Shown: positions 4,971 through 54,291 of the stretch, in pieces
How positions within the stretch are numbered: position 1 is the stretch's first letter
Layout of the letters: every line of letters begins with the position of its first letter
Virus record (IMG/VR): IMGVR_UViG_3300044213_000170
Span: 32,001 to 96,000 of that record
Strand: one strand, 5' to 3'
DNA length: 64,000 nt
DNA from: a virus
Program-made: the position numbers and the translations under genes
The notes under the pieces: generated by a model
What the model was told of the DNA's origin: nothing
The model's input: the letters and a program-made list of their open reading frames with translations, nothing else
Database searches by the model: none

Positions 4971-4973
4971 TTT

Positions 4974-39638: not shown

Positions 39639-39646
39639 AAACTTAT

Positions 39647-40063: not shown

Positions 40064-40114
40064 AATTTAAACTCCTAAGTAGTATTATAGCATCAATTTG
40101 AATTAAAAGCAACC

Positions 40115-40142
40115 AAAAAAAAATCCCGGAAATCCCGGGATA
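40115..40142 (-). terminator. intrinsic terminator ending the tRNA region
   Basis: ATCCCGG/CCGGGAT hairpin followed by a T-run. Confidence 0.75.
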
Positions 40143-40149
40143 TTTAAAG

Positions 40150-40225
40150 TGGAGCGGGATATCAGGTTCGAACTGACGACCTAGTGCTTGGCAAGCACTC
40201 GCTCTACCAACTGAGCTAATCCCGC
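40150..40225 (-). tRNA. tRNA-Gly(GCC)
   Basis: Cloverleaf, loop ttGCCaa, CCA encoded. Confidence 0.95.
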
Positions 40226-40234
40226 AAAAAATCT

Positions 40235-40310
40235 TGGTGCCCCTTGTCCGACTCGAACAGACCACCTACTGATTACAAATCAGTTGCTCTACCAGATGAG
40301 CTAAAGGGGC
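40235..40310 (-). tRNA. tRNA-Thr(TGT)
   Basis: Loop ttTGTaa, CCA. Confidence 0.95.
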
Positions 40311-40440
40311 TAACAGATCAATTTGACAACATAACATAACATAATATATCATAATACGTAAATTGTTCGTCTCTTTACAGAGTGTGTTGTTAAATTGTCT
40401 TTACTAACTATTTATTAAAGAAAAATCTATCGTTAAAATT

Positions 40441-40530
40441 TGGCGGAGCGACTGGGAGTCGAACCCAGTCACCGTCTTTCAACGGTGTACGGATTAGCAA
40501 TCCGCTGCCTTACCGTTCGGCCACCGCTCC
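40441..40530 (-). tRNA. tRNA-Ser(GCT)
   Basis: Long variable arm, G73, CCA. Confidence 0.95.
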
Positions 40531-40549
40531 TATTATCATATTATTTATT

Positions 40550-41383
40550 GCTCTGCATCCCTCGGCGGTAATTATACCTCTCAAGCCTTTTGCCGTCACT
40601 TGAAATATACAGGCATGACCCATATACTCCATCAGGTTACTTGACTATCACAGAGGCCGCCACCCGCTTCCCGACAGGGACCGTTCACGCATTGCCAGCG
40701 GCCTTTTGGTTCGAAGACTACCACCCGTGGGGCACGACCACCACTTCTCCTTCATCCGGGTCAGACTAGCTCAGCGTTACCCGAGCGGGTTCTTTCTCAG
40801 ACGCCACCGTTCTTTAGCGGCGTCTGATATTTTCTTCTTCTGTTCTTCAGACATTATTTTGGATCTTGTCTCCCAAGACTTTTTTGTTGTCTCACTTAAC
40901 TTTTGTCTAACTTCTTCAGTGTGGCAATTTGGGTAGCTACGTCTTTTATTAGCGTTGCTTATTTTTTGTCTAGTTTCAACACTAGTAATTTTTCCTCTTT
41001 TCGAACTACCTTTTTTCCAATTAGATTCTGGTGAAGTTCCTGAAGAACCTTCACCACCATTAGTCATATTCTTTAATATGCCTGTTCCTAAATCTTGTCT
41101 TCCATATTTTGAAATTAATTCAGTTTCTAAGTTAAATGCTTCCTGTTCAGACAAATTTTCATGTAACAGAACTATTCTCTTATAGTTTTTTGGAGTATGA
41201 ACTCCCCTACCATTAACACGATGCTGTTCCCAGGCACGCCGTTCTTTACCCTTACCAATATAGTAAGGTGAACCATCTTCTCTTAGATAAGCATAAACAT
41301 AGTATTCATTCATACTATTATTTATGTCAACCGGGTCATACCACCATCCTGCGGGTCACAGTATCTGCTGATTAGGCAGAACG
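40550..41383 (-). ncRNA. unidentified structured RNA interrupted by a GIY-YIG ORF
   Basis: GC-rich flanks; 5' GTTCTGC pairs with 3' GCAGAGC; promoter at 41410-41438. Confidence 0.55.
40777..41313 (-). mobile_element. GIY-YIG + NUMOD3 homing endonuclease
   Basis: YYVYAYLREDGSPYYIGKG; SVETRQKIS and HTEEVRQKLS repeats; paralog of 1255..1944. Confidence 0.88.
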
Positions 41384-41409
41384 TCTTTAAATATTTCTAA
41401 CTTATATGT

Positions 41410-41438
41410 ATTATACAAAATTAATCATTTTTTGTCAA
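41410..41438 (-). promoter_or_regulatory. sigma70 promoter
   Basis: TTGACA-N17-TATAAT. Confidence 0.8.
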
Positions 41439-42783
41439 TTAACTTTTGCAAATCTTCTGCCATTCTGTCCAGCACATCATAATTATGCATTCGATCTTGC
41501 CAATATGTAGTTATATCATTGTACAAACCGCTTTGTGTTCCGTATTCGCCCCATCGCCAATCACTACCGTCATATGGGACATATACCCAACACGTTTTAC
41601 CTAATGCACCTGCTAAATGAATCGGTGCACTGTCAATGCTAATTATTAAATCAAGCTGATCTAAAAATTTTGCAGTATCGTTAAAGTCAATTAACTTGGG
41701 TGTAACATCGATTATATTTAATTTACTACGAGCGACTTCTCCTTTGTCAATTATGTTAGCTTGTAGACTAACATAAGTAATGTCTTTAGGAAAATGGTCA
41801 AACATACTCAATGTCAAACTTCTATTTTTGTCATTGATATGTCTGGGATTACCTCGCCACGCTAACCCGACTTTAAATCCTGCGGGCAACTGTGGTACGT
41901 CACAATCTGCGGCCTCGAGATAAGCAGGAGGACTACCCCACCCGGTTTCTACTCCCAACGCATAAGGTATACTCATTTGGTATAACCAAAAATCGTATTT
42001 ACTAGGATCAATATTTTCGTAATCGCTAGTAATAGTTACGTTTTCACAAGTGTTGGAATTTTTAAATAATTTTTCTAACGCTTGTTCACACCCATAAGTC
42101 ACGTGACTTGCTACCTTACTCAAGGGTTCTAAATATCTAAAGAATTGAAGTCCGTCGCCGAACCCTTGCTCTTTACTGACAAATATCCTGGCACCTTTAA
42201 TGCTTTCTGGGTTGCCGTCCCATAAGGGTAATCTCCCCTTAACGTAACGGTCACTAAATTTTTCAGGTTCTGTTCGAAGATTCCTGTTTTCGTGCAATCT
42301 CCAGCCATCTTTAAAATTGCCAAGCCTTAATTCCACCAATCCCCAATCAAACCAAGATTTATAATGATCGGGCATTATATCTACTGCTTTTTTGTAATAA
42401 GGGATAGATTCTTTTTGTTTATGCATTCTGGATAATGCATATCCGATATTTGTGTAAAACTCAGGAACATTGTTATTGATACGAGACCCACGAGTCAACA
42501 TGTCGATGGCTTCTATATATCTGCAATTTTGTAATAACAGATATGCATACGAAAACATAAAGTTATAACATTGTGGGTGTTTTTCGTTCTGTATCAAAAT
42601 TTTAAAAATTTGTTCGGCCTTAACATAGTCTTGATCGGTTAATGCTTGTTTAGCCTCGATATACATATCTTCAGGGGTTTTTATCTGACTTTTAAGATTG
42701 TCAGAAATAGCTGCTCCGGCTTGATTAATGGCTTTGATTATTTGGTCAATATACGGTTGAATATCTGTCACTTGAATCTCCAA
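41425..42783 (-). CDS. TPR + glycosyltransferase (GT9-like) protein
   Basis: TPR repeats, EQGFGD, ISIDSAPIHLAGALG, DWRW. Confidence 0.85.
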   Translation of the reverse strand: MEIQVTDIQPYIDQIIKAINQAGAAISDNLKSQIKTPEDMYIEAKQALTDQDYVKAEQIFKILIQNEKHPQCYNFMFSYAYLLLQNCRYIEAIDMLTRGSRINNNVPEFYTNIGYALSRMHKQKESIPYYKKAVDIMPDHYKSWFDWGLVELRLGNFKDGWRLHENRNLRTEPEKFSDRYVKGRLPLWDGNPESIKGARIFVSKEQGFGDGLQFFRYLEPLSKVASHVTYGCEQALEKLFKNSNTCENVTITSDYENIDPSKYDFWLYQMSIPYALGVETGWGSPPAYLEAADCDVPQLPAGFKVGLAWRGNPRHINDKNRSLTLSMFDHFPKDITYVSLQANIIDKGEVARSKLNIIDVTPKLIDFNDTAKFLDQLDLIISIDSAPIHLAGALGKTCWVYVPYDGSDWRWGEYGTQSGLYNDITTYWQDRMHNYDVLDRMAEDLQKLIDKK

Positions 42784-42837
42784 TACAATTTATATTTACT
42801 TTTTTTAAATTCGACTCAAATCATATTAAATAGTTTT

Positions 42838-43116
42838 ATGTCAAAAGATCGAATCCCAATAAACTTACGTCGCAGAGTCTTAGAACGAGACGGGCCGCAT
42901 TGTGTTTATTGTGATGAGGATTTAACTGACAAAGAAATACATATGGACCATGTAATACCCGAATCACAAGGAGGTCCTACAACATATAGCAATTTACAAG
43001 TTACTTGTCGTAAATGTAATTTAGCCAAAGGCATATTAACCGAAGACGAGTTTGTTACCAGATTGAGAAATAGAGCTTGGAATATTCTCAATCGATTAGG
43101 CACACCAAAAAATTAA
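42838..43116 (+). CDS. HNH endonuclease
   Basis: RDGPHCVYC, DHVIP..GG, NLQVTCRKCN. Confidence 0.85.
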   Translation: MSKDRIPINLRRRVLERDGPHCVYCDEDLTDKEIHMDHVIPESQGGPTTYSNLQVTCRKCNLAKGILTEDEFVTRLRNRAWNILNRLGTPKN

Positions 43117-43745
43117 GGTTGCTGAATAATTATATCTTTATACTTTTCTTTAAAAGTAATAAAATCTGGATTGCTAGGCAAAATTAAACTAAACAATACT
43201 CGCGTAGATTCGATATTTTCTACACTATGATATGTTTGCACATCAAATGAATGCCAAGTATTGTACGGCAAACACACATCAAAATTTCGTGTAAGTTGGT
43301 CGTAAGTAAGATTCTCAGCAGCTGTCAAGTCGGTTCCTTTTCGTTTTTCATTAAAGAAACAAGTTCGAACATTGTCGCCGCCTGTTTGTAGAATATAATT
43401 AATGCTAACTTTACGTGCCCTGTCACAATGTGGTGGGCTTTCGGCTAGTCTATCACCATATGTATTTGATAAGTTTGCTACTACGGCTTTAACTTCCTCG
43501 CCGAAAAATACACTATAAATATTTCGAATTTCTTGTTGTAGCTGGTCCGGTATGGGTACTCTACCATATGCTACACTTATCGAATGAATCTCATTGCTGT
43601 GAAATTCTTCTAACCATTTTTGTCCTTCCGAATCCGGCGGAATTGCCATTGCGAATTTAGTAAGTTGGTCAGATATTTCAGTGGACAAAGGAGGCAAATT
43701 TAAATATACCAGAAGGTTGTTCATTTTTGCCGCCACCATACTCAA
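43113..43745 (-). CDS. cupin/2OG-Fe(II)-like protein
   Basis: PHCD..R..SINY, WH...YHSVEN...R. Confidence 0.55.
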   Translation of the reverse strand: MSMVAAKMNNLLVYLNLPPLSTEISDQLTKFAMAIPPDSEGQKWLEEFHSNEIHSISVAYGRVPIPDQLQQEIRNIYSVFFGEEVKAVVANLSNTYGDRLAESPPHCDRARKVSINYILQTGGDNVRTCFFNEKRKGTDLTAAENLTYDQLTRNFDVCLPYNTWHSFDVQTYHSVENIESTRVLFSLILPSNPDFITFKEKYKDIIIQQP

Positions 43746-44308
43746 ATTAGATTTTCATTTTGCAAAATATCAACGATATTTTTGATCAATTCAATTTCAG
43801 TGCGGACATTCAATTCCAACACTTTATCATTGATACTTTGCTTTTCCTTTTTAAGTCCTAGCATTTCCTTACGGAATGCGTCAATATCTGCTTGGTCCAA
43901 GACCCCGGTGCTAACAGTGTCATGGTAACCGTATACACGGCTTGACTTCTCAGAAGATGCAATCTTTTGCAACTTACCTGCAACTACATCAAGATGCTCA
44001 GCAACTTCGCCTTCAACAAAACCTTTAAGGTGGCCGATGCGCTTATCGATATACGCAGCTTGTGTGAGCAGATCGCTTACACCGCTTTCAACATTGGCAC
44101 GACCAACGGCACTGCGGATTGCATATAGCGCCTTTGTCAGCTCGTTGCGGCGAGTATCCCCTTGTAATACTTGTGCCCGAGCGGCAACTAGTTCGATCCC
44201 TGGATTTTGGAATTCATTGATCGAAATCGAAGTCTTAACTTCGACGGTCTTGATTTGATCTTGAATTGCAGTTTGCAGTGCATTTGCTTTGCGAAGTGTG
44301 ATTTTCAT
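43742..44308 (-). CDS. coiled-coil hypothetical protein
   Basis: MKITLRKANALQ start with AAAAGGA RBS. Confidence 0.65.
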   Translation of the reverse strand: MKITLRKANALQTAIQDQIKTVEVKTSISINEFQNPGIELVAARAQVLQGDTRRNELTKALYAIRSAVGRANVESGVSDLLTQAAYIDKRIGHLKGFVEGEVAEHLDVVAGKLQKIASSEKSSRVYGYHDTVSTGVLDQADIDAFRKEMLGLKKEKQSINDKVLELNVRTEIELIKNIVDILQNENLI

Positions 44309-44871
44309 TTGATATTCCTTTTTGTAAAAAACAGTGAGTGTATGGCAAGTAAATAGCCGGACAATGTGCAATAAACATTATCAGGACCATTACAGCCGCT
44401 GTCGATAAGACAATGTGCAAAAGACAGTGATCTTAATTTTTCCAGGGTCAACAAACAAGGCTTTCGCCGTAATATAAAGCTGGGTCACTAAGATACGAGA
44501 GTAGTCATTAAAAGCCCTTTTCAAGAGGATTTTAACGTTTCGCTATCCCTAATCTCCACACACTAACCGGCTAGTTTTTAAAAACTAGCAAAATTTAATA
44601 ATCATAGTATATACTATAAAGTGTTAAGTTCATAATATTTTGGTTAAATTGATATCAATTTAACCAAATATAGGATTTGCAAGTAGTTCCGCCTCCCTCA
44701 TTCGGAACCATTTTACCAGTATTTTCTGTGAAGCCCGGGACTGGTTAGAGGTACGTATTAACAATAGTTACTTGAAGTTAATGTCGGTATCCCGATGCAT
44801 TTCTTCTCACAAGGTTTTCGACGCCTTGCTTTCACTACATATACACTTGCAAAATTTGTTGGTTTATTAAA

Positions 44872-44997
44872 CCATATAAAAATACACTCAATATCAGTTC
44901 CTTGCTGGCACAAAGATCCTTTCGCCCCTGCCAGGGGACCGAAGTAGTTACCGCTTTTAGGCACGGCACTTGCCCCGTCAAGCATACTTTTATATGG
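44872..44997 (-). ncRNA. long-stem small RNA family, copy A
   Basis: CCATATAAAAGTATGCT ... AGTGTATTTTTATATGG. Confidence 0.55.
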
Positions 44998-45157
44998 CAA
45001 CAAACTAATGCGATGGGATTCGAACCCAACCCTGCTCCCCTTTCGGCAATTCATCCACCCCTGCAAGGGTTTCAACTCTGCGTACTCGCTTCGCTGTGCT
45101 ACCAGCACACCACACAACCTGTCACAATCCATTGCAGTGTCTTGTGAGCAGTCTTGT

Positions 45158-45247
45158 ACCATATAGAAACACACTACCTACGCTCTCAGTCGTAGCCCAC
45201 CCGTGGAACCTTCGATCAACTCCGGCCTAAGTGTGTTTTTATATGGT
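45158..45247 (-). ncRNA. long-stem small RNA family, copy B
   Basis: ACCATATAAAAACACACT ... AGTGTGTTTCTATATGGT. Confidence 0.6.
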
Positions 45248-45462
45248 TAGTTCAAAGTCCCGATACAGGCATGACCCATATGACACTTTTTATCCGCTTA
45301 ACCGAGCCGGTGCGTTATTCACGGTGCGGCAAAATTAAGTTTCAGAACTAGCATATTTCTGGTCTGGGACTCGAACCCAGTGCGTGAACGGCTTCGCTTC
45401 AGGTAACGTTACCTCCTTAGCACTTACTAACACAGGTTAATTAAGCCAACTATTAAAGTTAC

Positions 45463-45549
45463 TGGTGAGACAGGTGGGGATCGAACCCACACGGGCATAA
45501 AGCCGCCAGATTAAAAGTCTGGTACCGCAACCATTTCGGTGTCTGTCCC
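45463..45549 (-). tRNA. atypical tRNA, anticodon TTT (Lys) with long variable arm
   Basis: CCAGA-ctTTTaa-TCTGG, 15-nt variable region, A8, A73, CCA. Confidence 0.85.
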
Positions 45550-45553
45550 ATAT

Positions 45554-45628
45554 TGGTCCTTGCTCAGAGAATCGAACTCTGTTTTTCCGGGTAAGAGCCG
45601 GGTACTTCGCCAGCAAAGTTTAGCAAGG
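45554..45628 (-). tRNA. tRNA-Lys(CTT)
   Basis: Loop ctCTTac, A8/U14, CCA. Confidence 0.9.
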
Positions 45629-45723
45629 ATGGCTTGTATTAAAATTATCTTTAATGTCTCACAACTTATTAAAGAGTTCTTTAATGTGCCATCCCAAGAC
45701 CAATACGGAGTCTAAGGATGACA

Positions 45724-45747
45724 CTATCGTTTCGTTGAACGTTTCAT
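45724..45747 (-). CDS. 7-aa leader peptide MKRSTKR
   Basis: AAAAGGAAA RBS; TTGACA-N17-TATAAT at 45775-45803; hairpin directly after TAG. Confidence 0.5.
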   Translation of the reverse strand: MKRSTKR

Positions 45748-45854
45748 GTCATTTCCTTTTGCGTTAAAAATATTATTATACAACTATCATGGTCAGTTGT
45801 CAACCGAATTTGTATGTGTTGTTTTCGCACAACACATAAAGCGGGGTCTGTTCT

Positions 45855-46226
45855 TTACTTCTTCAATGATTCTATTGTAGTAAGCAATTCCCTCCATAGC
45901 TTACTAGGATTTTCACCCTTATTAAAATCCATCAATGCCATATAAGTTTCTTGACTACCTTCTGGAATCTTGAAATAGATATTAGCATAGGTGTAATCAA
46001 AATCATCGTCTGCATCATGGCTGTACCATGGGTGTTCTGACATCTCATCAAAAACATCTTCATAGTCTTCACGGTTACCGCCACCATTACGTGTATGAAC
46101 AACAATGAAACCATCTTCCATATAGACATTACGAAAACGACCAAAGTCAGCCTTCGTCTTGCCTAACAAGGACAATAGCTTGTCACTGTCAGGATTCATT
46201 CCAAAAACTAGATTATACAATGACAT
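45855..46226 (-). CDS. hypothetical protein
   Basis: GRFR...TRNGGGNR...DDDFDYTYA; AAGGAG RBS. Confidence 0.7.
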   Translation of the reverse strand: MSLYNLVFGMNPDSDKLLSLLGKTKADFGRFRNVYMEDGFIVVHTRNGGGNREDYEDVFDEMSEHPWYSHDADDDFDYTYANIYFKIPEGSQETYMALMDFNKGENPSKLWRELLTTIESLKK

Positions 46227-46245
46227 ATTGTCTCCTTTGTAAATG

Positions 46246-46321
46246 TGGTAGGTCTTACTGGAATCGAACCGGTGGTCTTCACCGTGTCATGGTGACGATT
46301 TAGCCTCTAATCTAAAGACCT
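46246..46321 (-). tRNA. tRNA-Val(GAC)
   Basis: Loop atGACac, CCA. Confidence 0.9.
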
Positions 46322-46325
46322 ATTG

Positions 46326-46472
46326 TTAATCTAATCCGTTACCACTAGTGGATAAGGACGACTTTTGTTGTCTACGCAAAGCCTTATTAGTTTTGCGATG
46401 TGAACCTGCTTTTCTCATTAATGCTAAGGCAACGAAGCGGTTACGTTGCTTGACAATGTTTACTCGCTTCAT
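46326..46472 (-). CDS. small basic protein (48 aa)
   Basis: MKRVNIVKQRNRFVALALMRKAGSHRKTNK...; AAGGA RBS. Confidence 0.55.
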   Translation of the reverse strand: MKRVNIVKQRNRFVALALMRKAGSHRKTNKALRRQQKSSLSTSGNGLD

Positions 46473-46491
46473 TATGTTTCCTTCATTAAAT

Positions 46492-46567
46492 TGGTTGCAG
46501 AGGAGGGAATCGAACCCCCGACCTCCAGGTTATGAGCCTGGCCAGATACCGCTTCTAACACTCTGCG
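46492..46567 (-). tRNA. initiator-like tRNA-fMet(CAT)
   Basis: C1:A72 mismatch, loop ctCATaa. Confidence 0.85.
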
Positions 46568-46587
46568 ATTCTATTTATAAAAATACT

Positions 46588-46664
46588 TGGAGGTCTGGGT
46601 AGGATTTTAACCTACGAATCAACTGGTTTGCAATCAGTGCCATTAAACACTCTGGTACCAGACC
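46588..46664 (-). tRNA. tRNA-Cys(GCA), aberrant T loop
   Basis: U73, T loop TTAAAAT. Confidence 0.75.
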
Positions 46665-46670
46665 ATAAAA

Positions 46671-46740
46671 CTATTATGAAACACACTAACCCGCTTGGCT
46701 ACCCTAAAAAGGACCGCGCTTCCAATGCGTTTTACAATAG
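46671..46740 (-). ncRNA. long-stem small RNA family, copy C
   Basis: CTATTGTAAAACGCATT ... AGTGTGTTTCATAATAG. Confidence 0.55.
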
Positions 46741-47635
46741 TGCCTAAGGTTGAGATTACACCTTAAGCCAACAGCACCTCGAGCATTATAGTACGCCTTG
46801 CGAGCATACCTTCTCTCGACATCCACATAAGCCATTGCTGTACCTATGTCTGCTATCAGCATCGCCGTTTTAAGTCAGGCAGTAGACTTGACATCATATG
46901 CTATTCTACGCTTTCTATCCCGTTGAACTTGCGGTCCATTAAGCCTTGCGAGCTACGAAACTTCTTGCATAAACAGTTTTTACCTTGCGAGTTACGACTG
47001 ACTGAATTACCTTGCGGCTCCAGTATTAGATGCTTTTCACATATGACCGAGGCAGTCTTTGCATTTTAATCGTTAATTGGATTTGAACCAATAGTCGACT
47101 CCTTAACAGGGAGTTGCGTTACCATTACGCTATAACAACCTACTGCGATGAGCTGCCTCTGTTGCTACACAATCTTTTGGACTGCATAATACAACTCACC
47201 ACGTACCTTTTGTCTTGCGGACTACTCAGTCGTCTTTTGCGATCATTGTCGGGTCTCGGCTTTCGCGTACCTCCAACAACCACTCAAACTGCATACAAGC
47301 CCTTAGGTGCAACCCCTTGGACAAGTATACTACCCTTTCTCATACCAAATAACTGAATTGGTTTCGTAGTGAAGTCAGCACCACCTGTTACTTTCCATCT
47401 ACTCAAGTTCCCATCCGTCGAAACTTCAGGCTTGTAAGCAGACGTTCTTTCCACTACATTCAGCGTCTCTGTTACCACCACCGGTCTTATCAGTGATGGG
47501 CACCTCGCGGTGCTGAGCAGGCTTGTTTATCTGAACTATTACTAGCGGACTTATGTAGGCATACATCCTTTGGCTCCATCGCTGGAGTTATTCTTCGTAA
47601 ACGGCAAGCCGCCTACAGGACAATAAACTGCCCTA
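46741..47635 (-). ncRNA. GOLLD-like large ornate RNA (~0.9 kb)
   Basis: No credible ORF; many GCAA/GAAA tetraloop hairpins; 3' AAGGTGTAATCTCAACCTT; inside a phage tRNA cluster; family recalled from memory, not searched. Confidence 0.72.
47068..47140 (-). tRNA. tRNA-Asn(GTT)-like cloverleaf embedded in the GOLLD-like RNA
   Basis: D arm GCGT/ACGC, ACTCC-ctGTTaa-GGAGT, ATTGG-TTCAAAT-CCAAT, G:U-rich acceptor, no CCA. Confidence 0.7.
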
Positions 47636-47768
47636 AAATCTTGTTTGTTCTGTGTCTTGCACTATTTGCCTAACTCAACAGCTTTACTCGAGTTTACTGT
47701 TTATTGCGTCGGTTACATAACGCTTGATCATGCCTCTGTGCTTGCAAGGCACAGAACAAACAAGATTT
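47636..47768 (-). repeat. 26-bp inverted repeat enclosing ~80 nt
   Basis: AAATCTTGTTTGTTCTGTG.CTTGCA arms. Confidence 0.8.
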
Positions 47769-47820
47769 ACAAAATTTACTTTTTAAAGAACAAACTTAGT
47801 TAATTTCTAACTAAGAATCT

Positions 47821-47849
47821 ATTGTAGCAAATTATATAAAATTTGTCAA
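47821..47849 (-). promoter_or_regulatory. sigma70 promoter upstream of the GOLLD-like RNA
   Basis: TTGACA-N17-TACAAT. Confidence 0.7.
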
Positions 47850-48022
47850 CCTATGGGGCTTTTGACGATCCAGCCCAGTGCATGTAAGTTCAAGAAAGTA
47901 CTCCACATAGTCATTGCAAACAATCCGATTTTTACAACAATGTTTAACCAGCCCCTGGTGCTCCAGCGCACCAAGAAATAGGTAAAGATCATGCCCGACA
48001 CAGCGAAATACCAGTTAATCAT
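47846..48022 (-). CDS. small membrane protein (58 aa)
   Basis: MINWYFAVSGMIFTYFLV...; two hydrophobic stretches; promoter at 48054-48082. Confidence 0.5.
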   Translation of the reverse strand: MINWYFAVSGMIFTYFLVRWSTRGWLNIVVKIGLFAMTMWSTFLNLHALGWIVKSPIG

Positions 48023-48094
48023 TTGAAAGCGCCTTTAGTTAATCAATACGAATATTATAGTCCCAAAACGATTTATAGTCAACTTGGTTTTATA

Positions 48095-48130
48095 TAGTAC
48101 TAAAGTACTAGTACTAGTACTTTAGTACTA
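48095..48130. repeat. perfect 36-bp palindrome of AGTACT units
   Basis: TAGTACTAAAGTACTAGTACTAGTACTTTAGTACTA equals its reverse complement. Confidence 0.9.
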
Positions 48131-48135
48131 AATTT

Positions 48136-48210
48136 TGGCCCGGCGTACAGGAATCGAACCCATATTCGTGGTGTAGAAGACCACTGTATTATCCATTATA
48201 CTAACGCCGG
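48136..48210 (-). tRNA. tRNA-Arg(TCT)
   Basis: Loop ctTCTac, CCA. Confidence 0.92.
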
Positions 48211-48214
48211 ATTC

Positions 48215-48290
48215 TGGTGGTCGGAAGAGCACTCGAAGCTCCACATTCCTCCTTATGAGGGAGGCTCTCTTCCTCTTAAGATATCCGACC
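48215..48290 (-). tRNA. tRNA-Met/Ile2(CAT)
   Basis: CCTCC-ctCATaa-GGAGG, CCA. Confidence 0.85.
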
Positions 48291-48293
48291 ATA

Positions 48294-48475
48294 ATATTTG
48301 TTAAGCTGGCTCACTTTGAGCACCTTCGTCCTCCACGGACGCTAGTCTTATGCCATCCTTGTTGAATCAGTCTCCGCAGGGCCCATTGGCTACCTATCAA
48401 CAATTCATCGCGTCCCTTGCTCGTACCCGTCGGTAATTACTCAGGCTTTCGTTTAAACTACAGCTTAACAAATAT
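48294..48475 (-). ncRNA. candidate small RNA closed by a perfect 15-bp inverted repeat
   Basis: ATATTTGTTAAGCTG ... CAGCTTAACAAATAT around a GC-rich interior. Confidence 0.5.
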
Positions 48476-48581
48476 CATATAGAAACACACTGGTGTCCTT
48501 GCTCCTCCAGGATGACACTCCTGTCCAAATGAGGTTTATGACCGGCTTGTCGATCAGCAACAATGTGTTTTTATATGATAT
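48472..48581 (-). ncRNA. long-stem small RNA family, copy D
   Basis: ATATCATATAAAAACACATT ... AGTGTGTTTCTATATGATAT. Confidence 0.6.
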
Positions 48582-48744
48582 CGAAGATGGGAATCGAACC
48601 CACTAACTACCGGTGCGATGCCGGTTGTGCTACGCTCATTATACAACAAGTTTGTTCCGTTTGCAACCGGACTCGCTATATAACTTGGCACTAACTTTCC
48701 ATGTCGTTTTCTTCATTACCATATAGAATGTGTTTTTATATAAG

Positions 48745-48822
48745 TGGAGCACAGGGAGGGATTTGAACCCCCGGTTTTAGGGATTTGCAATCCCTTGCAT
48801 TGGGCCACTCTGCCACCTGTGC
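48745..48822 (-). tRNA. tRNA-Cys(GCA)
   Basis: Loop ttGCAaa, U73, CCA. Confidence 0.92.
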
Positions 48823-48830
48823 ATATTTTA

Positions 48831-48906
48831 TGGTAGCGACGGTGGGACTCGAACCCACGATAAACTCCGTATGAAGGAGGTACATTAGCCGCTATGCTAA
48901 ATCACT
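48831..48906 (-). tRNA. tRNA-Met/Ile2(CAT)
   Basis: Loop ttCATac, CCA, weak acceptor stem. Confidence 0.8.
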
Positions 48907-48913
48907 ATATTTT

Positions 48914-48989
48914 TGGTGCCGCCTCCCGGGATCGAACCAGGTTCCATGGATTTTCAATCCACCGCAATGACCACATTTGCTAAAGCGGC
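48914..48989 (-). tRNA. tRNA-Phe(GAA)
   Basis: Loop ttGAAaa, CCA. Confidence 0.92.
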
Positions 48990-49148
48990 AATGTAGATCG
49001 GGAGCCTAACTATCCTCCTGGGAGGACTCGCTAGATTGTCTCGAATAGGCAAGTTTATCTACCACGAATAGCCATCTGTTGTTGTCGCATAGCTAAGTCA
49101 CTATGCTAGGCTAGGTGGGACTCAAACCTATCGTCTATCCCTTAAACT

Positions 49149-49223
49149 TGGGGTATCGTACCAGGATCGAACTGGTGATAGCGGAATCACAACCCGCGGT
49201 TTTACCACTAAACTAACGACACC
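49149..49223 (-). tRNA. tRNA-His(GTG)
   Basis: G-1:C73, loop ttGTGat. Confidence 0.93.
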
Positions 49224-49231
49224 ATATCAAT

Positions 49232-49308
49232 TGGCGCGACTGGAGAGATTCGAACTCCCGACACCTGACTTCGTAGGCCAGTACTCTATCCAACTGAGCT
49301 ACAGTCGC
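49232..49308 (-). tRNA. tRNA-Arg(ACG)
   Basis: Loop ctACGaa, CCA. Confidence 0.95.
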
Positions 49309-49314
49309 AAAAAA

Positions 49315-49391
49315 TGGCCCGCCCTGACGGACTCGAACCGCCAACAACTGATTTCGAAGACCAGGACTCTATCCAGTTGAGCTAAAGGCGG
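49315..49391 (-). tRNA. tRNA-Arg(TCG)
   Basis: Loop ctTCGaa, CCA. Confidence 0.93.
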
Positions 49392-49400
49392 TCTAAATAT

Positions 49401-49475
49401 TGGCAGGGGGTTAGGGAATCGAACCCTATCACCTACGGTCAAAGCGTAGTATCTGCTCCAATCGATTTACCCCCA
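49401..49475 (-). tRNA. tRNA-Gln(TTG)
   Basis: Loop ctTTGac, G73, A8. Confidence 0.88.
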
Positions 49476-49559
49476 ACTGATCTGAAGTGTTGCTTATTCT
49501 ATACAATGTACAATATAAGCAACAGTTTGTTGGTCTCGCATAATGCGAATTATAAAACT

Positions 49560-49636
49560 TGGCGACCCCGGATGGATTTGAACCACCGACATTTGGTTTT
49601 GGAGACCAACGTTCTGCCAGACTGAACTACGGAGCC
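49560..49636 (-). tRNA. tRNA-Trp(CCA) with U11-A24
   Basis: D stem GTTC/GAAC, loop ctCCAaa. Confidence 0.95.
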
Positions 49637-49643
49637 ATTAAAT

Positions 49644-49734
49644 TGGCGGAGGGCTAGAGAGTCGAACTCTAAAGGCGCTATTAACGCTCGGCGGTTTTCA
49701 AGACCGTTACCGTCACCAATCGGCTTGGCCCTCC
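49644..49734 (-). tRNA. tRNA-Ser(TGA)
   Basis: Loop ctTGAaa, long variable arm. Confidence 0.93.
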
Positions 49735-49860
49735 ATTTTGTGATTGTCGTTACGGGGTTTACCGTACCTGAAACTAGTCCCACCGCTTGCCAATCTTACT
49801 GAATGGACCTATAGACTTATGTGGCGCTTCCGTGCATTCTCATTACACTATGACAAAACT

Positions 49861-49938
49861 TGGCGCAGACCAAAGGACTCGAACCTTTGCGGGAATCTAG
49901 AATGCGGAGGACATGCCCCCTACCCCTCCATTATCTGC
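49861..49938 (-). ncRNA. tRNA-like RNA with acceptor/T arm and CCA but no canonical D or anticodon arm
   Basis: GCAGAT/GTCTGC-G-CCA, CAAAGG-TTCGAGT-CCTTTG. Confidence 0.6.
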
Positions 49939-49945
49939 ATTAACT

Positions 49946-50021
49946 TGGTGCCGTCGCCATGAATCGAACACGGGACCTTCTCATTACAAGTGAGTTGCTC
50001 TACCAACTGAGCTACAACGGC
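49946..50021 (-). tRNA. tRNA-Thr(TGT)
   Basis: Loop ctTGTaa, CCA. Confidence 0.93.
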
Positions 50022-50030
50022 TTTAATAAA

Positions 50031-50109
50031 TGGCGCACCGTACGAGATTCGAACTCGTGATCTCCGCCGTGACAGGGCGGCGCCTTAGGCCAGACTGAGC
50101 TAACGGTGC
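50031..50109 (-). tRNA. tRNA-Asp(GTC)
   Basis: Loop ctGTCac, G73. Confidence 0.93.
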
Positions 50110-50114
50110 AAATT

Positions 50115-50190
50115 TGGCGCTCGGTAGGGGAATCGAACCCCTCTTCCCGCCGTGAAAGGGCGGTGTCCTAGACCGATAGACGAACCGAGC
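50115..50190 (-). tRNA. tRNA-Glu(TTC)
   Basis: Loop ctTTCac. Confidence 0.93.
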
Positions 50191-50272
50191 ATAATATCTT
50201 GAGACGGTGGAATCAAACCACTCTAGTCAGCATCTTCTCTGTGAAGATGCCCGTAATCATACTCCTCAAAAT

Positions 50273-50339
50273 ACTATATGTAAGTACACTACTCATCGGC
50301 TGTGCCATTTGACTGTTCGGCAATGTACTTGCATATAGT
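50273..50339 (-). ncRNA. long-stem small RNA family, copy E
   Basis: ACTATATGCAAGTACATT ... AGTGTACTTACATATAGT. Confidence 0.55.
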
Positions 50340-50459
50340 TTAGGGCTGTGGTCACTTTCGACTTAACATTTAACTAAGGCTTTCTTTATGCATTTATATC
50401 CTTAGCACCCTTCTTAAACATTATTATAAAAGAAAATACTTTTATTGTCAACTATGTAG

Positions 50460-50541
50460 TGGATGCGGTTGGAGTCGAACTTACTCATCCGAAGAAACTG
50501 GGTTACAGCCAGCCACACCTCTCCAACTGTGTCGCACTTCC
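50460..50541 (-). pseudogene. degenerate tRNA-Tyr(GTA) duplicate
   Basis: Similar to neighbour, mismatched T and acceptor stems, no CCA. Confidence 0.65.
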
Positions 50542-50548
50542 ATTAATT

Positions 50549-50634
50549 TGGTGGGTAAGGATGGATTCGAACCAACTCATCCGAAGGAAAGAGATTTACA
50601 GTCTCCCGCGCCTCTCCAACTGCGCCGCTTACCC
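50549..50634 (-). tRNA. tRNA-Tyr(GTA)
   Basis: Loop ctGTAaa, variable arm, CCA. Confidence 0.92.
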
Positions 50635-50714
50635 ATAGTACATATTATATCGAAAAAAATAATTTTCGTCAACTAAAAAAAAAATAGCCGTAAACTTGTT
50701 AAGGCTATTTTGTT

Positions 50715-50789
50715 TGGTGGAGGATAGCGGGGTCGAACCGCTGACTGAAGCTTGCAAAGCTACCGTGTTCCCAACTATACCAATCCCCC
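50715..50789 (-). tRNA. tRNA-Ala(TGC)
   Basis: G3:U70, loop ttTGCaa. Confidence 0.93.
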
Positions 50790-50800
50790 CGATAACTTAT

Positions 50801-50974
50801 TTATTCTTCTTTGCCACGCTTGGTGGACTTTGCCAACCGATTATTAGTTTCAATCATCTTAGTATACATTTTGAAATACTCGCGACGATCGGTATTGTTT
50901 AAAATCCTTGCAGCACGGCGCTTAACCGCTTTAGGCATTTTTATTGCTTTAATGTCATATCCTCTACAGGTCAT
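50801..50974 (-). CDS. small basic protein (57 aa)
   Basis: MTCRGYDIKAIKMPKAVKRRAA... Confidence 0.5.
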   Translation of the reverse strand: MTCRGYDIKAIKMPKAVKRRAARILNNTDRREYFKMYTKMIETNNRLAKSTKRGKEE

Positions 50975-51000
50975 TTTATTTCTTTCAAAAATAATTAATT

Positions 51001-51219
51001 GTAGTTCAGTGTCCTCAGGTTTATCACTGATGTTTAGACGTTCAGAGCCGGACTTCCTAACGTCGAGTTCTTCCAGGACTTGTTACTCGGGCTACTAAGC
51101 CAGGTGCTCCTTTTCAGCTACCGCCCAAAATGGACAGTGGGGAGTTGAACCCCCTCCTGCTTTACACTAGTTCAACGTTCGAACATCTTACTAATGTGCT
51201 TTTCACTTGCTAACACTAC
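51001..51219 (-). ncRNA. YrlA/Y-RNA-like RNA with circularly permuted tRNA module
   Basis: CAGG - T arm GGGG-TTCAACT-CCCC - closed acceptor CTGTCCA-ttt-TGGGCGG - TA - D arm GCT/AGC - CCTG. Confidence 0.6.
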
Positions 51220-51224
51220 AAACT

Positions 51225-51300
51225 TGGTCTCCGTAGAAGGATTTGAACCTTCACCGCATGGTCCCAAACCATGAACGCTACCGGGTTACGCTATACGGAG
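51225..51300 (-). tRNA. tRNA-Pro(TGG)
   Basis: Loop ttTGGga, CCA. Confidence 0.92.
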
Positions 51301-51731
51301 TTTATACTTTTCAACATAATCGTCTATAATGGGCTGAACCTCATTAACATAACGACTATGAACATAACTATGATGTGTAGGACATAAAGGAACTAAATTC
51401 GCAGGTTCATTGTTATCATGGTTGTGATCGTGATGATGCACTGCTACAATTTTATCTTCCTCACACACTACACACTTTTTATCGTGGTGTAAGAAGCAAA
51501 TGGATTGATACTTTTCGCCCTTCCAATTACCGTTACTTTCACCACTTCTAAAATGCTTGTTTGAACAACTTCTACTGCAAGTACCTTTAGAGTTCTTGAA
51601 GTCCTTAATAGGGGTCGAACATACTATACATTCTTTTATATTAACAGGATTTAGATAACAATTATCCTCGTGCCGTTTAATATTTTGTGGTTCGTTTCTT
51701 TACCGCAGTATTGACAATTAATATGTTTCAT
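51286..51731 (-). pseudogene. zinc-finger HNH homing endonuclease with a 1-nt frameshift near 51690
   Basis: MKHINCQYCGKE in one frame; PQNIKRHEDNC...CSRSC...VHH.D.N..NN..NLVPLCPTHH in the -1 frame. Confidence 0.65.
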
Positions 51732-51800
51732 ACATTTATTTATCATTTAGCGCACAGAATGAGATATTCTCAAACAGACTGCTCTACACTCCGAAATCTC

Positions 51801-51876
51801 TGGTAGGACGTGACGGTCTCGAACCGCCGACATTCACGGTGTAAACGTGACGCTCTACCAACTGAGCTAACGTCCT
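51801..51876 (-). tRNA. tRNA-Val(TAC)
   Basis: Loop ttTACac. Confidence 0.94.
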
Positions 51877-52029
51877 ATATCTTTTACTTATGTTTATTAT
51901 ACAGACACAAATAATAAATGTCAAATAATTTTTGCAATTTCCGGTGCAAAAACTGCACTTGCAAATGCTATATAAAATAATAATATCAACATACTCTAAT
52001 CCTCTAGACTATAGTATATTTAATATGTA

Positions 52030-52103
52030 TGGAGCGGAATATCAGAATCGAACTGATGACGTCTGCTTGGAAGGCAGTGGTTTTACCATTAAACTAATCC
52101 CGC
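52030..52103 (-). tRNA. tRNA-Gly(TCC)
   Basis: Loop ctTCCaa, U73. Confidence 0.93.
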
Positions 52104-52113
52104 ATTTTATTCT

Positions 52114-52190
52114 TGGTGCCTTGACCTGGATTCGAACCAGGGACCTACGCCTTATCAAGACGGTGCTACTACCAGCTGAGCTATCAAGGC
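52114..52190 (-). tRNA. tRNA-Ile(GAT)
   Basis: Loop ttGATaa. Confidence 0.93.
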
Positions 52191-52195
52191 CAATT

Positions 52196-52280
52196 TGGTG
52201 CCCCCCAAGAGACTCGAACTCTCACGCCTTGCGGCGCTGGAACCTAAATCCAGTGCGTCTACCAATTTCGCCAAAGGGGC
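52196..52280 (-). tRNA. tRNA-Leu(TAG)
   Basis: Loop ttTAGgt, variable arm. Confidence 0.94.
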
Positions 52281-52289
52281 AATGATGTT

Positions 52290-52366
52290 TGGCTCCTCGA
52301 CGTGGGCTCGAACCACGGACATCTTGATTAACAGTCAAGCGCAACTACCAACTGTGCTATCGAGGA
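52290..52366 (-). tRNA. tRNA-Asn(GTT)
   Basis: Loop ctGTTaa, G73. Confidence 0.94.
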
Positions 52367-52415
52367 ATAAAATTCAACAGTATATATTATATATGCGATA
52401 TAAATTTGCTGTCAA

Positions 52416-52516
52416 GTATTTTAGAACACACTAGTGATTCGACCTAGTAAATGGGCCCGCCACAATAGTTTATCGTTCTATCGGCCGAGTTATTCGTCTA
52501 ATGTGCTCTAAAATAC
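52416..52516 (-). ncRNA. long-stem small RNA family, copy F
   Basis: GTATTTTAGAGCACATT ... AGTGTGTTCTAAAATAC. Confidence 0.55.
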
Positions 52517-52693
52517 CTTCTTATTAAGAAGATATGTTAGGGTTGTACCCTAACCAGTTATCTGTACTTTGCTGTTATCGCCAGCATTTCATCCAACTGT
52601 CCGCCCATTTGTCACATTTTATATGGCGTTGTGTGCTGGCTCGCGTTGCCTTATCACGCCGAAAATTAACAATAGTCAATTTTCTTTTTACAT

Positions 52694-52726
52694 AAACAAA
52701 AACCCCAGGGTGTTTAATCCTGGGGT
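52694..52726 (-). terminator. intrinsic terminator (putative attenuator)
   Basis: ACCCCAGG-loop-CCTGGGGT followed by TTTTGTTT. Confidence 0.85.
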
Positions 52727-52751
52727 CCTTAGAGTGGTTGTAGTGTTGTTT

Positions 52752-52895
52752 TTACGCTACAATGTCCCCCTGGACCCCGATCTTAATCTCCGGTGTACGA
52801 TCATTATGATTTCCAGTAACCATACACCAAGAGGCAGACATCGCCTGTCTCTGTTTGGCATAAAAGTTTACTGATGATGATAAAATCGTGTTCAT
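52752..52895 (-). CDS. 47-aa putative attenuator leader peptide containing all 20 amino acids
   Basis: MNTILSSSVNFYAKQRQAMSASWCMVTGNHNDRTPEIKIGVQGDIVA*; perfect promoter just upstream. Confidence 0.7.
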   Translation of the reverse strand: MNTILSSSVNFYAKQRQAMSASWCMVTGNHNDRTPEIKIGVQGDIVA

Positions 52896-52905
52896 GATGT
52901 TTTGT

Positions 52906-52934
52906 ATTATATGTTATTTATACTTTGTTGTCAA
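52906..52934 (-). promoter_or_regulatory. sigma70 promoter with nested TATAAATA late box
   Basis: TTGACA-acaaagTATAAATAaca-TATAAT. Confidence 0.8.
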
Positions 52935-52975
52935 GAAGTTTTGATTATGTTGTAAAAATACAACAAATTAAAATT

Positions 52976-53060
52976 TGGTGCGCCTAGCCGGAATCGAACC
53001 AGCATGACCGAAGTCGGGAGATTTTAAGTCTCCTGTGTCTACCTATTTCACCATAGGCGC
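52976..53060 (-). tRNA. tRNA-Leu(TAA)
   Basis: Loop ctTAAaa, variable arm. Confidence 0.94.
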
Positions 53061-53129
53061 ATTTGTTTTGCAATAACTCTATTGTAGCAATATTTCTATT
53101 TATTGTCAACAATATTTTGTTGTTATTTT

Positions 53130-53221
53130 TGGTACCAGCGGAGGGGATCGAACCCTCTCAAGAACGCTAATCTGGCGCTAAAAGTCTTATAAGGACTCTC
53201 TGACTTCCAAGTCTCGCTGGT
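53130..53221 (-). tRNA. atypical tRNA, anticodon TAT, long variable arm, small D loop
   Basis: ACCAGCG/CGCTGGT-A-CCA; GACT-TGGA-AGTC; AGAGTC-ctTATaa-GACTTT. Confidence 0.8.
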
Positions 53222-53226
53222 AAAAC

Positions 53227-53303
<77 letters not shown>

Positions 53304-53320
53304 GATTTTTCTATTATATG

Positions 53321-54259: not shown

Positions 54260-54291
54260 AAATGTGATTATACAATAATTTGGATTTATTG

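What the first reader, a model, noticed from the sequence alone, without database searches (positions are those of the whole stretch)
52694..52934. Candidate all-amino-acid attenuator upstream of a 20-amino-acid phage tRNA array
Seen: a perfect TTGACA-N17-TATAAT promoter precedes an almost leaderless 47-codon ORF, and all 20 amino acids occur within its first 36 codons. Codons 40-48 form the 5' arm of a long hairpin (GGGGTCC 52772-52778 with GGACCCC 52722-52728, AGGG/CTCT, TTGTAG/CTACAA) with the TAA stop at its apex. The 3' arm overlaps the left stem of an intrinsic terminator, so the two folds exclude each other. About 30 tRNAs covering all 20 amino acids lie downstream. Established: trp/his-type attenuators sense one or a few amino acids through ribosome stalling. 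Inference: completed translation melts the antiterminator and transcription stops, while a stall at any depleted or cleaved tRNA allows read-through into the array. That would be a general tRNA-pool sensor, for example against host anticodon nucleases. Caveat: internal sigma70-like promoters (~52386-52415, ~51896-51924) mean only part of array expression may be controlled.
Basis: partly seen in the sequence, partly recalled or inferred. Interest (0 to 1): 0.93.

Follow-up and report, generated by a model that had tools for sequence, protein, structure and literature searches.

The report
All-amino-acid leader switch before phage tRNAs
This uncultured large phage, like well over a hundred relatives, places in front of most of its tRNA genes a tiny translated gene that selection keeps stocked with all 20 amino acids and that ends inside a stop/go RNA switch, so it probably transcribes on into its tRNA region whenever ribosomes decode any codon class too slowly.

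Summary
The window alone is not beyond chance: all 20 amino acids within 36 codons has P about 0.3%, and 2 of 232 ORFs here do it.

Relatives decide the case. Two DNA-pattern scans and one profile search found the same cassette in more than 140 distinct variants, all on uncultured viral contigs.
- Coverage: 59 of 67, 91 of 101 and 105 of 146 leaders hold all 20 amino acids. The background is 1.7-2.5%. Cys, His, Tyr and Trp mostly occur exactly once, and Cys, His and Tyr move between positions.
- Codon classes: the leaders cover a median 29 of 32, against 22 in ordinary genes.
- Switch: the stop codon sits at the top of an antiterminator hairpin whose 3' arm shares CCC(C/U) with an intrinsic terminator. 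The shared base changes together with both partners, and the two folds are nearly isoenergetic.
- Context: a same-strand tRNA array follows in nearly every locus.

The best reading is a ribosome-mediated transcription attenuator with the logic of whiB7. Completed translation terminates; stalled or absent translation reads through. This is inferred, not shown.

In this window the next tRNA has its own perfect promoter, so control is partial. The scan had already found this family on other DNA. I found no publication.

The parts
52948..52965 (-). Palindrome TGTTG-N8-CAACA, 14 nt upstream of the -35 box. It may be an operator or an upstream hairpin. It is not general to the family.
   Evidence: Read. 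Present in 6 of 68 family upstream regions. The same palindrome lies at 45817-45834.
52906..52934 (-). Consensus sigma-70 promoter: TTGACA, 17 nt, TATAAT.
   Evidence: 12 of 12 matches. A near-consensus promoter sits 6-10 nt or about 40-60 nt before the ATG in 61 of 68 family members.
52752..52895 (-). Leader ORF of 47 codons plus TAA. It is nearly leaderless and reaches all 20 amino acids by codon 36.
   Evidence: Family conservation of coverage. Coding constraint: synonymous to non-synonymous differences 759:624.
52797..52889 (-). Long hairpin ('rod') formed by codons about 3-33 of the leader. Possibly an RNA polymerase pause or timing structure.
   Evidence: MFE folds. Family mean -30.7 kcal/mol, about 31 nested pairs, z about -3. 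Cognate halves fold better than chimeric ones, -30.7 against -26.5.
52788..52805 (-). Conserved nucleotide motif AATGATCGTACACCGGAG (N-D-R-T-P-E). It forms the 3' strand of the rod base plus the linker to the antiterminator.
   Evidence: Alignments. The pattern ATGATCGYACACCAGAG hit 120 or more viral stretches.
52722..52778 (-). Antiterminator hairpin. The base is GGGGUCC/GGACCCC, with middle and apical helices inside it. The stop codon UAA lies at the 5' side of the apical loop.
   Evidence: Constrained folds (-25.3 kcal/mol). 36 distinct apical helices and the chimera test. The closing pair changes together with the shared base.
52694..52728 (-). Intrinsic terminator: CCCCAGG, a 9-nt loop, CCUGGGG, then UUUUUGUUU. 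Its 5' half overlaps the antiterminator 3' arm.
   Evidence: Variant terminators with compensatory changes in relatives. The two states differ by only 1.5 kcal/mol.
52490..52660 (-). Conserved, highly structured non-coding stretch directly after the terminator. In most relatives it lies after a small protein gene that this window lacks.
   Evidence: blastn matches to L093, L082 and L022 at 70-75% identity. Fold z-score -5.85 for 52420-52690. No Rfam match.
52386..52415 (-). Independent perfect sigma-70 promoter, 19 nt before the first downstream tRNA (Asn). It limits how much the switch can control in this phage.
40150..52366 (-). Downstream tRNA region: 31 tRNAs, 20 amino acids, 26 anticodons. 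It also holds GOLLD RNA and further promoters.

Best explanation
The element is a ribosome-mediated transcription attenuator. Its leader ORF acts as a test track for the whole decoding apparatus.

The proposed sequence of events:
- A strong sigma-70 promoter starts a nearly leaderless mRNA.
- Its first 36 or so codons contain every amino acid. In most relatives they contain nearly every tRNA decoding class.
- Its last 10 or so codons and its stop codon form the 5' arm and top of an antiterminator hairpin.
- The 3' arm of that hairpin shares CCCC with the 5' half of an intrinsic terminator.

The two outcomes:
- If a ribosome keeps pace with RNA polymerase and reaches the stop codon, it holds the 5' arm open. 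The terminator then forms and transcription ends at 52694-52702.
- If the ribosome is delayed at any codon, or never starts, the slightly more stable antiterminator forms first. Polymerase then reads through into the downstream structured RNA and the tRNA region.

The likely purpose is a feedback that raises phage tRNA output when decoding is limiting.

Shown by sequence comparison:
- the ORF is under selection for complete amino-acid coverage;
- the switch architecture and its pairing are conserved;
- it is linked to tRNA arrays.

Inferred:
- translation of the ORF;
- the polarity of the switch;
- the pause role of the rod hairpin;
- the physiological trigger.
For: 1. Family size. The terminator pattern and the ORF-motif pattern each hit about 120 or more viral stretches. 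A peptide profile hit 165 cluster representatives.

2. Amino-acid coverage.
- All 20 amino acids occur in 59/67, 91/101 and 105/146 leaders.
- The comparison figures are 1.7% of other ORFs of 40-52 aa in the same loci, 2.1% of 46-codon windows of real genes, and a column-permutation mean of 10 of 67 with a maximum of 20.
- Cys occurs exactly once in 55/67, spread over 22 alignment columns. His occurs once in 57, over 18 columns. Tyr occurs once in 48, over 23 columns.

3. Codon classes.
- The median is 29 of 32 half-boxes, against 22.0 +/- 2.1 in real genes.
- Both Ser boxes occur in 69/70 leaders and ATA in 62/70.

4. The switch.
- The antiterminator is present in all 70 folded elements, and the stop codon is always at its apex.
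- The spacing from the stop codon to the terminator is 26-37 nt.
- GGGGUCC is read in different frames in different members.
- The shared base C or U pairs G or A in the antiterminator and G or A in the terminator. No permutation out of 5000 reaches the observed Watson-Crick fraction.
- A divergent relative has both helices rewritten compatibly.
- The antiterminator state is more stable in 117/117 elements, but by a median of only 1.5 kcal/mol.

5. Geometry. The last new amino acid lies a median 11 nt before the 5' arm.

6. Context. Same-strand tRNA arrays follow in nearly all loci with downstream sequence. They cover 17-20 amino acids.

7. Coding constraint. Synonymous to non-synonymous differences are 759:624.

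8. Precedent. The whiB7 uORF attenuator has the same polarity. Removing an amino acid from that uORF abolishes sensing of that amino acid (PMC10274678).
Against: - There is no expression, ribosome or termination data.
- In this window the first downstream tRNA has its own perfect promoter, and further ones follow. Three tRNAs lie upstream of the leader.
- The window's own leader covers only 25 of 32 codon classes.
- Within the main subfamily the base and middle helices are conserved rather than covarying.
- The tree-aware test of the shared-base covariation is concordant (about 4:0) but underpowered, p = 0.125.
- In 16 elements the last new amino acid lies only 5-9 nt before the arm, and in 4 it lies inside it.
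- In about 80% of relatives the first gene after the terminator is a small protein of unknown function, so tRNAs may not be the primary target.
- A 3-5 nt leader without a Shine-Dalgarno sequence is a poor initiation context in E. coli (my own knowledge).
Confidence: 0.72

Rival explanations
1. The attenuator is real, but its main targets are the genes immediately behind it: a conserved 50-60 aa protein in most relatives and a structured non-coding RNA. The tRNA genes would be driven mainly by their own promoters. The switch would then induce a translation-stress factor, as whiB7 does, rather than tRNA supply.
For: - 100 of 127 downstream contexts have the small ORF starting within 45 nt of the U-tract. 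92 of them have a Shine-Dalgarno-like sequence.
- The conserved structured stretch follows it.
- The window and about 14 of 62 relatives have a consensus promoter just before the first tRNA.
Against: - 27 contexts, including this window, keep the switch without the small protein.
- Most relatives show no strong promoter between the terminator and the first tRNA under the strict pattern used.
- The cassette is found ahead of same-strand tRNA arrays essentially always.
- The two readings are not exclusive.
Confidence: 0.15
2. The ORF encodes a small protein that works as a protein. The hairpin and terminator are simply the 3' end of its own transcription unit.
For: - It has its own strong promoter and terminator.
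- There is purifying selection on the peptide.
- There is a conserved Trp and a conserved NDRTPE motif.
Against: - Peptide identity is low, with mean column identity 33%, while composition is held. Single Cys, His and Tyr residues wander over 18-23 columns.
- Codon-class coverage exceeds that of real genes.
- GGGGUCC is conserved in two reading frames.
- The conserved peptide motifs coincide with RNA helices.
- The hairpin competes with the terminator and changes together with it.
Confidence: 0.06
3. The roughly 200-nt transcript is a structured small RNA, made of the rod hairpin and a 3' hairpin, that acts in trans. The open reading frame would be incidental.
For: - It folds strongly, with z -4.97 for the window and about -3 for the rod across the family.
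- The surrounding region is rich in non-coding RNAs, including GOLLD.
- Attenuator RNAs can double as small RNAs. rnTrpL is an example, seen in abstracts listed.
Against: - An open frame of 35-53 codons is kept in more than 140 variants. The start is at the 5' end or behind a purine-rich stretch, and the stop is fixed in the apical loop.
- The excess of synonymous changes and the enforced 20-amino-acid coverage have no RNA-only explanation.
Confidence: 0.05

Closest known systems
whiB7 / wblC uORF transcription attenuator of mycobacteria and other Actinobacteria (PMC10274678, read)
   Same: - It has the same two-state logic. Efficient translation of a fairly long, compositionally diverse uORF lets a rho-independent terminator form. 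Stalling anywhere in the uORF gives an antiterminator and read-through.
- Which starvations are sensed depends on which amino acids the uORF contains. The M. smegmatis uORF has every amino acid except Cys.
   Different: - whiB7 is a bacterial chromosomal element controlling a transcription factor for antibiotic and alanine stress.
- Its uORFs are alanine-enriched, vary in length, and often lack several amino acids.
- The element here is a phage element ahead of tRNA genes. Complete coverage is itself under selection, with rare residues kept at exactly one copy.
- There is no sequence similarity. Homology was neither tested nor expected.
Leader-peptide attenuators of enterobacterial amino-acid operons (trpL, hisL, leuL, pheL; multivalent thrL and ilvL); my own knowledge
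   Same: - A short translated leader.
- An intrinsic terminator.
- A competing antiterminator.
- The position of the ribosome decides the fold.
- An upstream hairpin that could synchronise polymerase and ribosome.
   Different: - The classical leaders carry tandem runs of one to three cognate codons and use four segments (1:2, 2:3, 3:4). Without translation they terminate.
- Here every amino acid appears, mostly once, and there are only two competing helices.
- The rod hairpin does not overlap the antiterminator.
- Absence of translation should give read-through.
- The products controlled are RNAs (tRNAs), not biosynthetic enzymes.
T-box riboswitches (my own knowledge)
   Same: Both adjust transcription read-through by an antiterminator/terminator choice according to the state of the tRNA pool.
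   Different: - T-boxes bind one specific uncharged tRNA directly, need no ribosome and no ORF, and control aminoacyl-tRNA synthetase and amino-acid genes.
- No T-box match was found here (Rfam).

Membership tests
Ribosome-mediated (leader-peptide) transcription attenuator | A short ORF lies in the 5' leader, on the same transcript as and upstream of the controlled genes | tested here: met
   The 47-codon ORF starts 10 nt after the -10 box. It is conserved in more than 140 variants.
Ribosome-mediated (leader-peptide) transcription attenuator | An intrinsic terminator lies between the leader ORF and the downstream genes | tested here: met
   A 7-bp G+C stem, a 9-nt loop and a U-tract. It is conserved, with compensatory variants. 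Its termination activity was not measured.
Ribosome-mediated (leader-peptide) transcription attenuator | An alternative antiterminator helix excludes the terminator and is supported by comparative evidence | tested here: met
   - The two helices share CCC(C/U). The shared base pairs G or A in both helices, and no permutation out of 5000 matches this.
- The two states are nearly isoenergetic.
- The tree-aware test is concordant but underpowered.
Ribosome-mediated (leader-peptide) transcription attenuator | The ORF end is placed so that a terminating ribosome disrupts the antiterminator while a ribosome stalled upstream does not | tested here: met
   - The stop codon is in the apical loop in all 70 elements.
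- The 5' arm starts 11-28 nt before the stop codon.
- The terminator starts 26-37 nt after the stop codon.
- The last new amino acid lies a median 11 nt before the arm.
Ribosome-mediated (leader-peptide) transcription attenuator | The leader ORF is translated, and read-through responds to ribosome stalling | not testable with these tools
   Only evolutionary evidence of coding is available.
Classical amino-acid-specific attenuators (trpL/hisL type) | Tandem or clustered codons for the one to three amino acids made by the controlled operon | tested here: not met
   There are no codon runs. All 20 amino acids are present, and the rare ones occur once each.
Classical amino-acid-specific attenuators (trpL/hisL type) | A four-segment design in which an upstream 1:2 hairpin sequesters the antiterminator strand, so that an untranslated leader terminates | tested here: not met
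   The rod hairpin ends a median 14 nt before the antiterminator arm and does not overlap it.
whiB7-type general translation-stress attenuator (functional class) | A long, compositionally diverse uORF; the terminator forms on efficient translation and the antiterminator on stalling | tested here: inconclusive
   The architecture and the inferred polarity match the description in PMC10274678. The polarity here is inferred from geometry only.

The most novel reading that the evidence does not exclude
The cassette is a pan-tRNA sensor that large phages use as a counter-defence. When the host cleaves, depletes or fails to charge any tRNA species (through anticodon nucleases, starvation, or phage-induced host shut-off), ribosomes lag on the leader. 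The phage then switches on a spare, near-complete tRNA set and an accessory small protein and RNA. The near-isoenergetic switch and the rod hairpin would make it a kinetic race that measures decoding speed over almost every codon class.
Probability: 0.35. Interest if true: 0.95.

Novelty: new variant of a known kind. Interest (0 to 1): 0.87.

Why it matters
How phages regulate their tRNA genes, and why large phages carry near-complete tRNA sets, are open questions.

This cassette gives a concrete and testable answer. The tRNA region would be gated by a translated probe that samples every amino acid and almost every decoding class.

It would extend leader-peptide attenuation in three ways:
- from amino-acid biosynthesis to the supply of tRNAs themselves;
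- from one or a few amino acids to all twenty;
- from bacteria to phages.

It also shows a rare kind of selection, on the composition of a peptide rather than on its sequence.

The compact module of about 200 nt could serve as a general reporter of translation stress.

Tried and rejected
- Cultured relatives: blastn and tblastn against cultured phage genomes found no relative of the cassette.
- Bacterial and archaeal genomes: the exact terminator pattern is absent from the species-representative genomes.
- RNAalifold: on MAFFT alignments it recovered only the invariant terminator or the invariant base helix, because the inner helices are misaligned.
- Covariation within the main subfamily: the count of structure pairs on the base and middle helices showed no excess over shuffles, 93.2% against 92.7%. 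I therefore relied on three other lines: per-sequence constrained folds, chimera tests, and the variants found with a terminator-independent pattern.
- Tree-aware test: the test of the shared-base covariation lacked power.
- Known families: Rfam has no family for the leader or the downstream structured stretch. Pfam and the protein atlas gave nothing for the small downstream protein.
- Literature: five full-text searches found no description of such a leader before phage tRNA genes.
- Opposite polarity: I considered and rejected it. No segment of the rod is complementary to the antiterminator arm, so there is no anti-antiterminator.

Full report
**What is in the window**

The window is part of a 145-kb viral contig, estimated 42% complete. 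It comes from a large tailed phage that encodes a large terminase subunit, ribonucleotide reductase, a DnaB-like helicase, a UvsX-like recombinase and tail fibres.

All 34 tRNA genes lie on the minus strand between 40150 and 53303. Eight perfect TTGACA-N17/18-TATAAT promoters lie on the same strand in 15 kb.

Every detail of the finding is at the stated place:
- Promoter: 52934-52906.
- Start: ATG at 52895, 10 nt after the -10 box, with no Shine-Dalgarno sequence.
- ORF: 47 codons ending in TAA at 52754-52752. All 20 amino acids are reached at codon 36.
- Antiterminator: GGGGTCC (52778-52772) pairs with GGACCCC (52728-52722) around two inner helices. The stop codon is at the top.
- Terminator: CCCCAGG, 9 nt, CCTGGGG, then TTTTTGTTT, ending at 52694. 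It re-uses the CCCC of the 3' arm.

Thirty-one tRNAs for all 20 amino acids lie downstream and three lie upstream.

**Is the window alone beyond chance?**

No. Reaching all 20 amino acids within 36 codons has a probability of about 0.25-0.31% at this composition. The window holds 232 ATG-ORFs of at least 36 codons, and two of them do it. Five ORFs of 36-60 codons contain all 20. The case rests on relatives.

**Relatives**

The closest syntenic contig is L001, whose neighbouring protein is 64% identical. It has the same order of parts: a methyltransferase, tRNA-Met, a perfect promoter, a 47-codon ORF, a hairpin and a terminator. Its peptide is barely similar to the window's, yet it again holds all 20 amino acids.

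Three wider searches followed:
Most were the same cassette.
- A second scan used a motif inside the ORF (ATGATCGYACACCAGAG) and so did not depend on the terminator.
- A profile of 66 leader peptides was searched against 1.84 billion cluster representatives. It gave 165 hits, almost all of 41-83 residues.

No cultured phage and no species-representative bacterial genome carries the cassette.

**Selection for complete coverage**

All 20 amino acids are present in:
- 59 of 67 distinct peptides of the first set;
- 91 of 101 of the second set;
- 105 of 146 profile hits, with 139 of 146 holding at least 19.

The controls are far lower:
- 1.7% of other ORFs of 40-52 aa in the same loci;
- 2.1% of 46-codon windows of long genes;
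- 2.5-3.4% of random draws;
- a mean of 10.1 of 67 (maximum 20 in 2000 trials) when residues are permuted within alignment columns.

The rare residues are kept at exactly one copy:

| Residue | Leaders with exactly one copy (of 67) | Alignment columns occupied |
|---|---|---|
| Cys | 55 | 22 |
| His | 57 | 18 |
| Tyr | 48 | 23 |
| Trp | 65 | 3 (essentially one) |

Three of the four shift position, as the column counts show. Where the usual Tyr before the Trp is replaced, a Tyr appears elsewhere. This is selection on composition, not on sequence. Mean column identity is only 33%.

At the codon level the leaders cover a median 29 of 32 decoding classes, against 22.0 +/- 2.1 for real genes. Both Ser boxes are present in 69 of 70 leaders, both Leu boxes in 59, both Arg boxes in 58, and ATA in 62. 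The window's own leader is a poorer member with 25 classes.

Close pairs differ by 759 synonymous and 624 non-synonymous single changes, which shows coding constraint.

**The RNA switch**

Constrained folds of 70 unique elements show the following:
- The antiterminator is present in all of them.
- The stop codon is always at the 5' side of its apical loop.
- The 5' arm starts mostly 22-25 nt before the stop codon.
- The terminator starts 26-37 nt after the stop codon.

GGGGUCC is read in two different frames in different members, so it is constrained as RNA.

Within the main subfamily the base and middle helices are conserved rather than covarying. The evidence for pairing comes from three other lines:
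- The apical helix takes 36 different sequences. Cognate halves fold better than chimeric ones, -8.2 against -4.7 kcal/mol.
- Divergent subfamilies rewrite the base helix compatibly.
- In 117 unique elements the base shared by the two helices is C in 79 and U in 38. Its antiterminator partner is G with C (73 cases) and A with U (34 cases). Its terminator partner is G with C. With U it is A or wobble G. No permutation out of 5000 reaches the observed Watson-Crick fraction.

A tree-aware pairing test is concordant, about 4 to 0, but has too few independent pairs (p = 0.125).

At the moment of decision the antiterminator state is the more stable one in all 117 elements, by a median of only 1.5 kcal/mol. 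For the window the values are -27.5 and -26.0.

Codons 3-33 also fold into a long rod, with mean -30.7 kcal/mol and z about -3. It ends a median 14 nt before the antiterminator and does not compete with it.

**Context**

Almost every locus with downstream sequence has a same-strand tRNA array beginning 56-1100 nt after the terminator. There are usually no tRNAs upstream. Arrays of 20 or more tRNAs cover 17-20 amino acids in all but one of the 18 loci checked.

In 100 of 127 contexts the first gene after the U-tract is a conserved 50-60-residue protein of unknown function. The window lacks it. A conserved structured stretch follows, and the window has that directly after the terminator.

A near-consensus promoter lies either 6-10 nt or about 40-60 nt before the ATG in 61 of 68 members.

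**Mechanism**

The geometry implies the following outcomes:
- A ribosome that reaches the stop codon keeps the 5' arm open and stays clear of the terminator, so transcription stops.
- A ribosome delayed in the first 36 or so codons leaves the arm free, as does a failure to initiate. The antiterminator then forms first and polymerase reads through.

The last new amino acid lies a median 11 nt before the arm. That is about the downstream edge of a stalled ribosome (the footprint size is my own knowledge).

This is the logic described for the whiB7 uORF attenuator. There, removing Trp or His codons from the uORF abolishes sensing of that amino acid (PMC10274678).

The following remain inference:
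- translation of the ORF;
- the polarity of the switch;
- a pause role for the rod;
- the trigger, whether starvation, host shut-off or tRNA nucleases.

In this window the promoter at 52415-52386 drives the next tRNA independently, so the switch can add to array transcription but cannot gate it.

**Novelty**

Five full-text searches found no account of such a leader before phage tRNA genes.

Earlier follow-ups of this scan reached the same reading for this family on other genomes. They also supplied the whiB7 lead, which I checked.

I class the element as a new variant of a known kind of regulator.

Noticed in passing
window 46747-47202 (-): Full-length GOLLD RNA (Rfam RF02032, 223 bits) lies inside the tRNA region, with tRNA-Asn (47067-47140) embedded in it. 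A relative, L065, has one too at 4861-5326.
   Followed up: partly
L065:2148-2330 (+) and about 100 other family loci; absent from the window: A conserved 50-60-residue, charged, probably helical protein starts within 45 nt of the terminator U-tract. Its motif resembles TL-x-EQ-xx-KLIQDK-x-ERA. It has no match in Pfam or the protein atlas. It is the first gene behind the switch in about 80% of relatives.
   Followed up: partly
window 52420-52690 (-): A highly structured non-coding stretch (z -5.85) lies directly after the terminator. The part at 52490-52660 is conserved in relatives at 70-75% identity. It also includes a long-stem hairpin at about 52416-52516. There is no Rfam match.
   Followed up: partly
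window 45724-45803 (-): A second perfect promoter (45803-45775) drives a 7-codon mini-ORF (45747-45724, rich in Lys and Arg) that has a Shine-Dalgarno sequence. A 9-bp hairpin follows, and then the two tRNA-Lys genes. It may be a second, amino-acid-specific leader. No U-tract terminator was seen.
   Followed up: no
window 52948-52965 and 45817-45834 (-): The same palindrome, TGTTG-N8-CAACA, lies 14 nt upstream of the -35 box of both leader promoters. It recurs in 6 of 68 family members.
   Followed up: partly
window 39500-54500 (-): Eight perfect TTGACA-N17/18-TATAAT promoters lie on one strand in 15 kb, several of them directly before tRNA genes. The leader promoters of the family also share a conserved spacer, AAAGACTAAATAA.
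   Followed up: partly
window 53130-53221 (-): ARAGORN calls a 92-nt tRNA-Ile with anticodon UAU and a long extra arm, next to a CAU tRNA. This is an unusual way to read ATA codons.
   Followed up: no
family loci, 5' of the leader ORF: The family has two promoter arrangements. In one the -10 box lies 6-10 nt before the ATG, giving a leaderless-like mRNA (24 variants). In the other a 40-60 nt 5' UTR carries a small hairpin and an AAGGA stretch (about 37 variants).
   Followed up: partly
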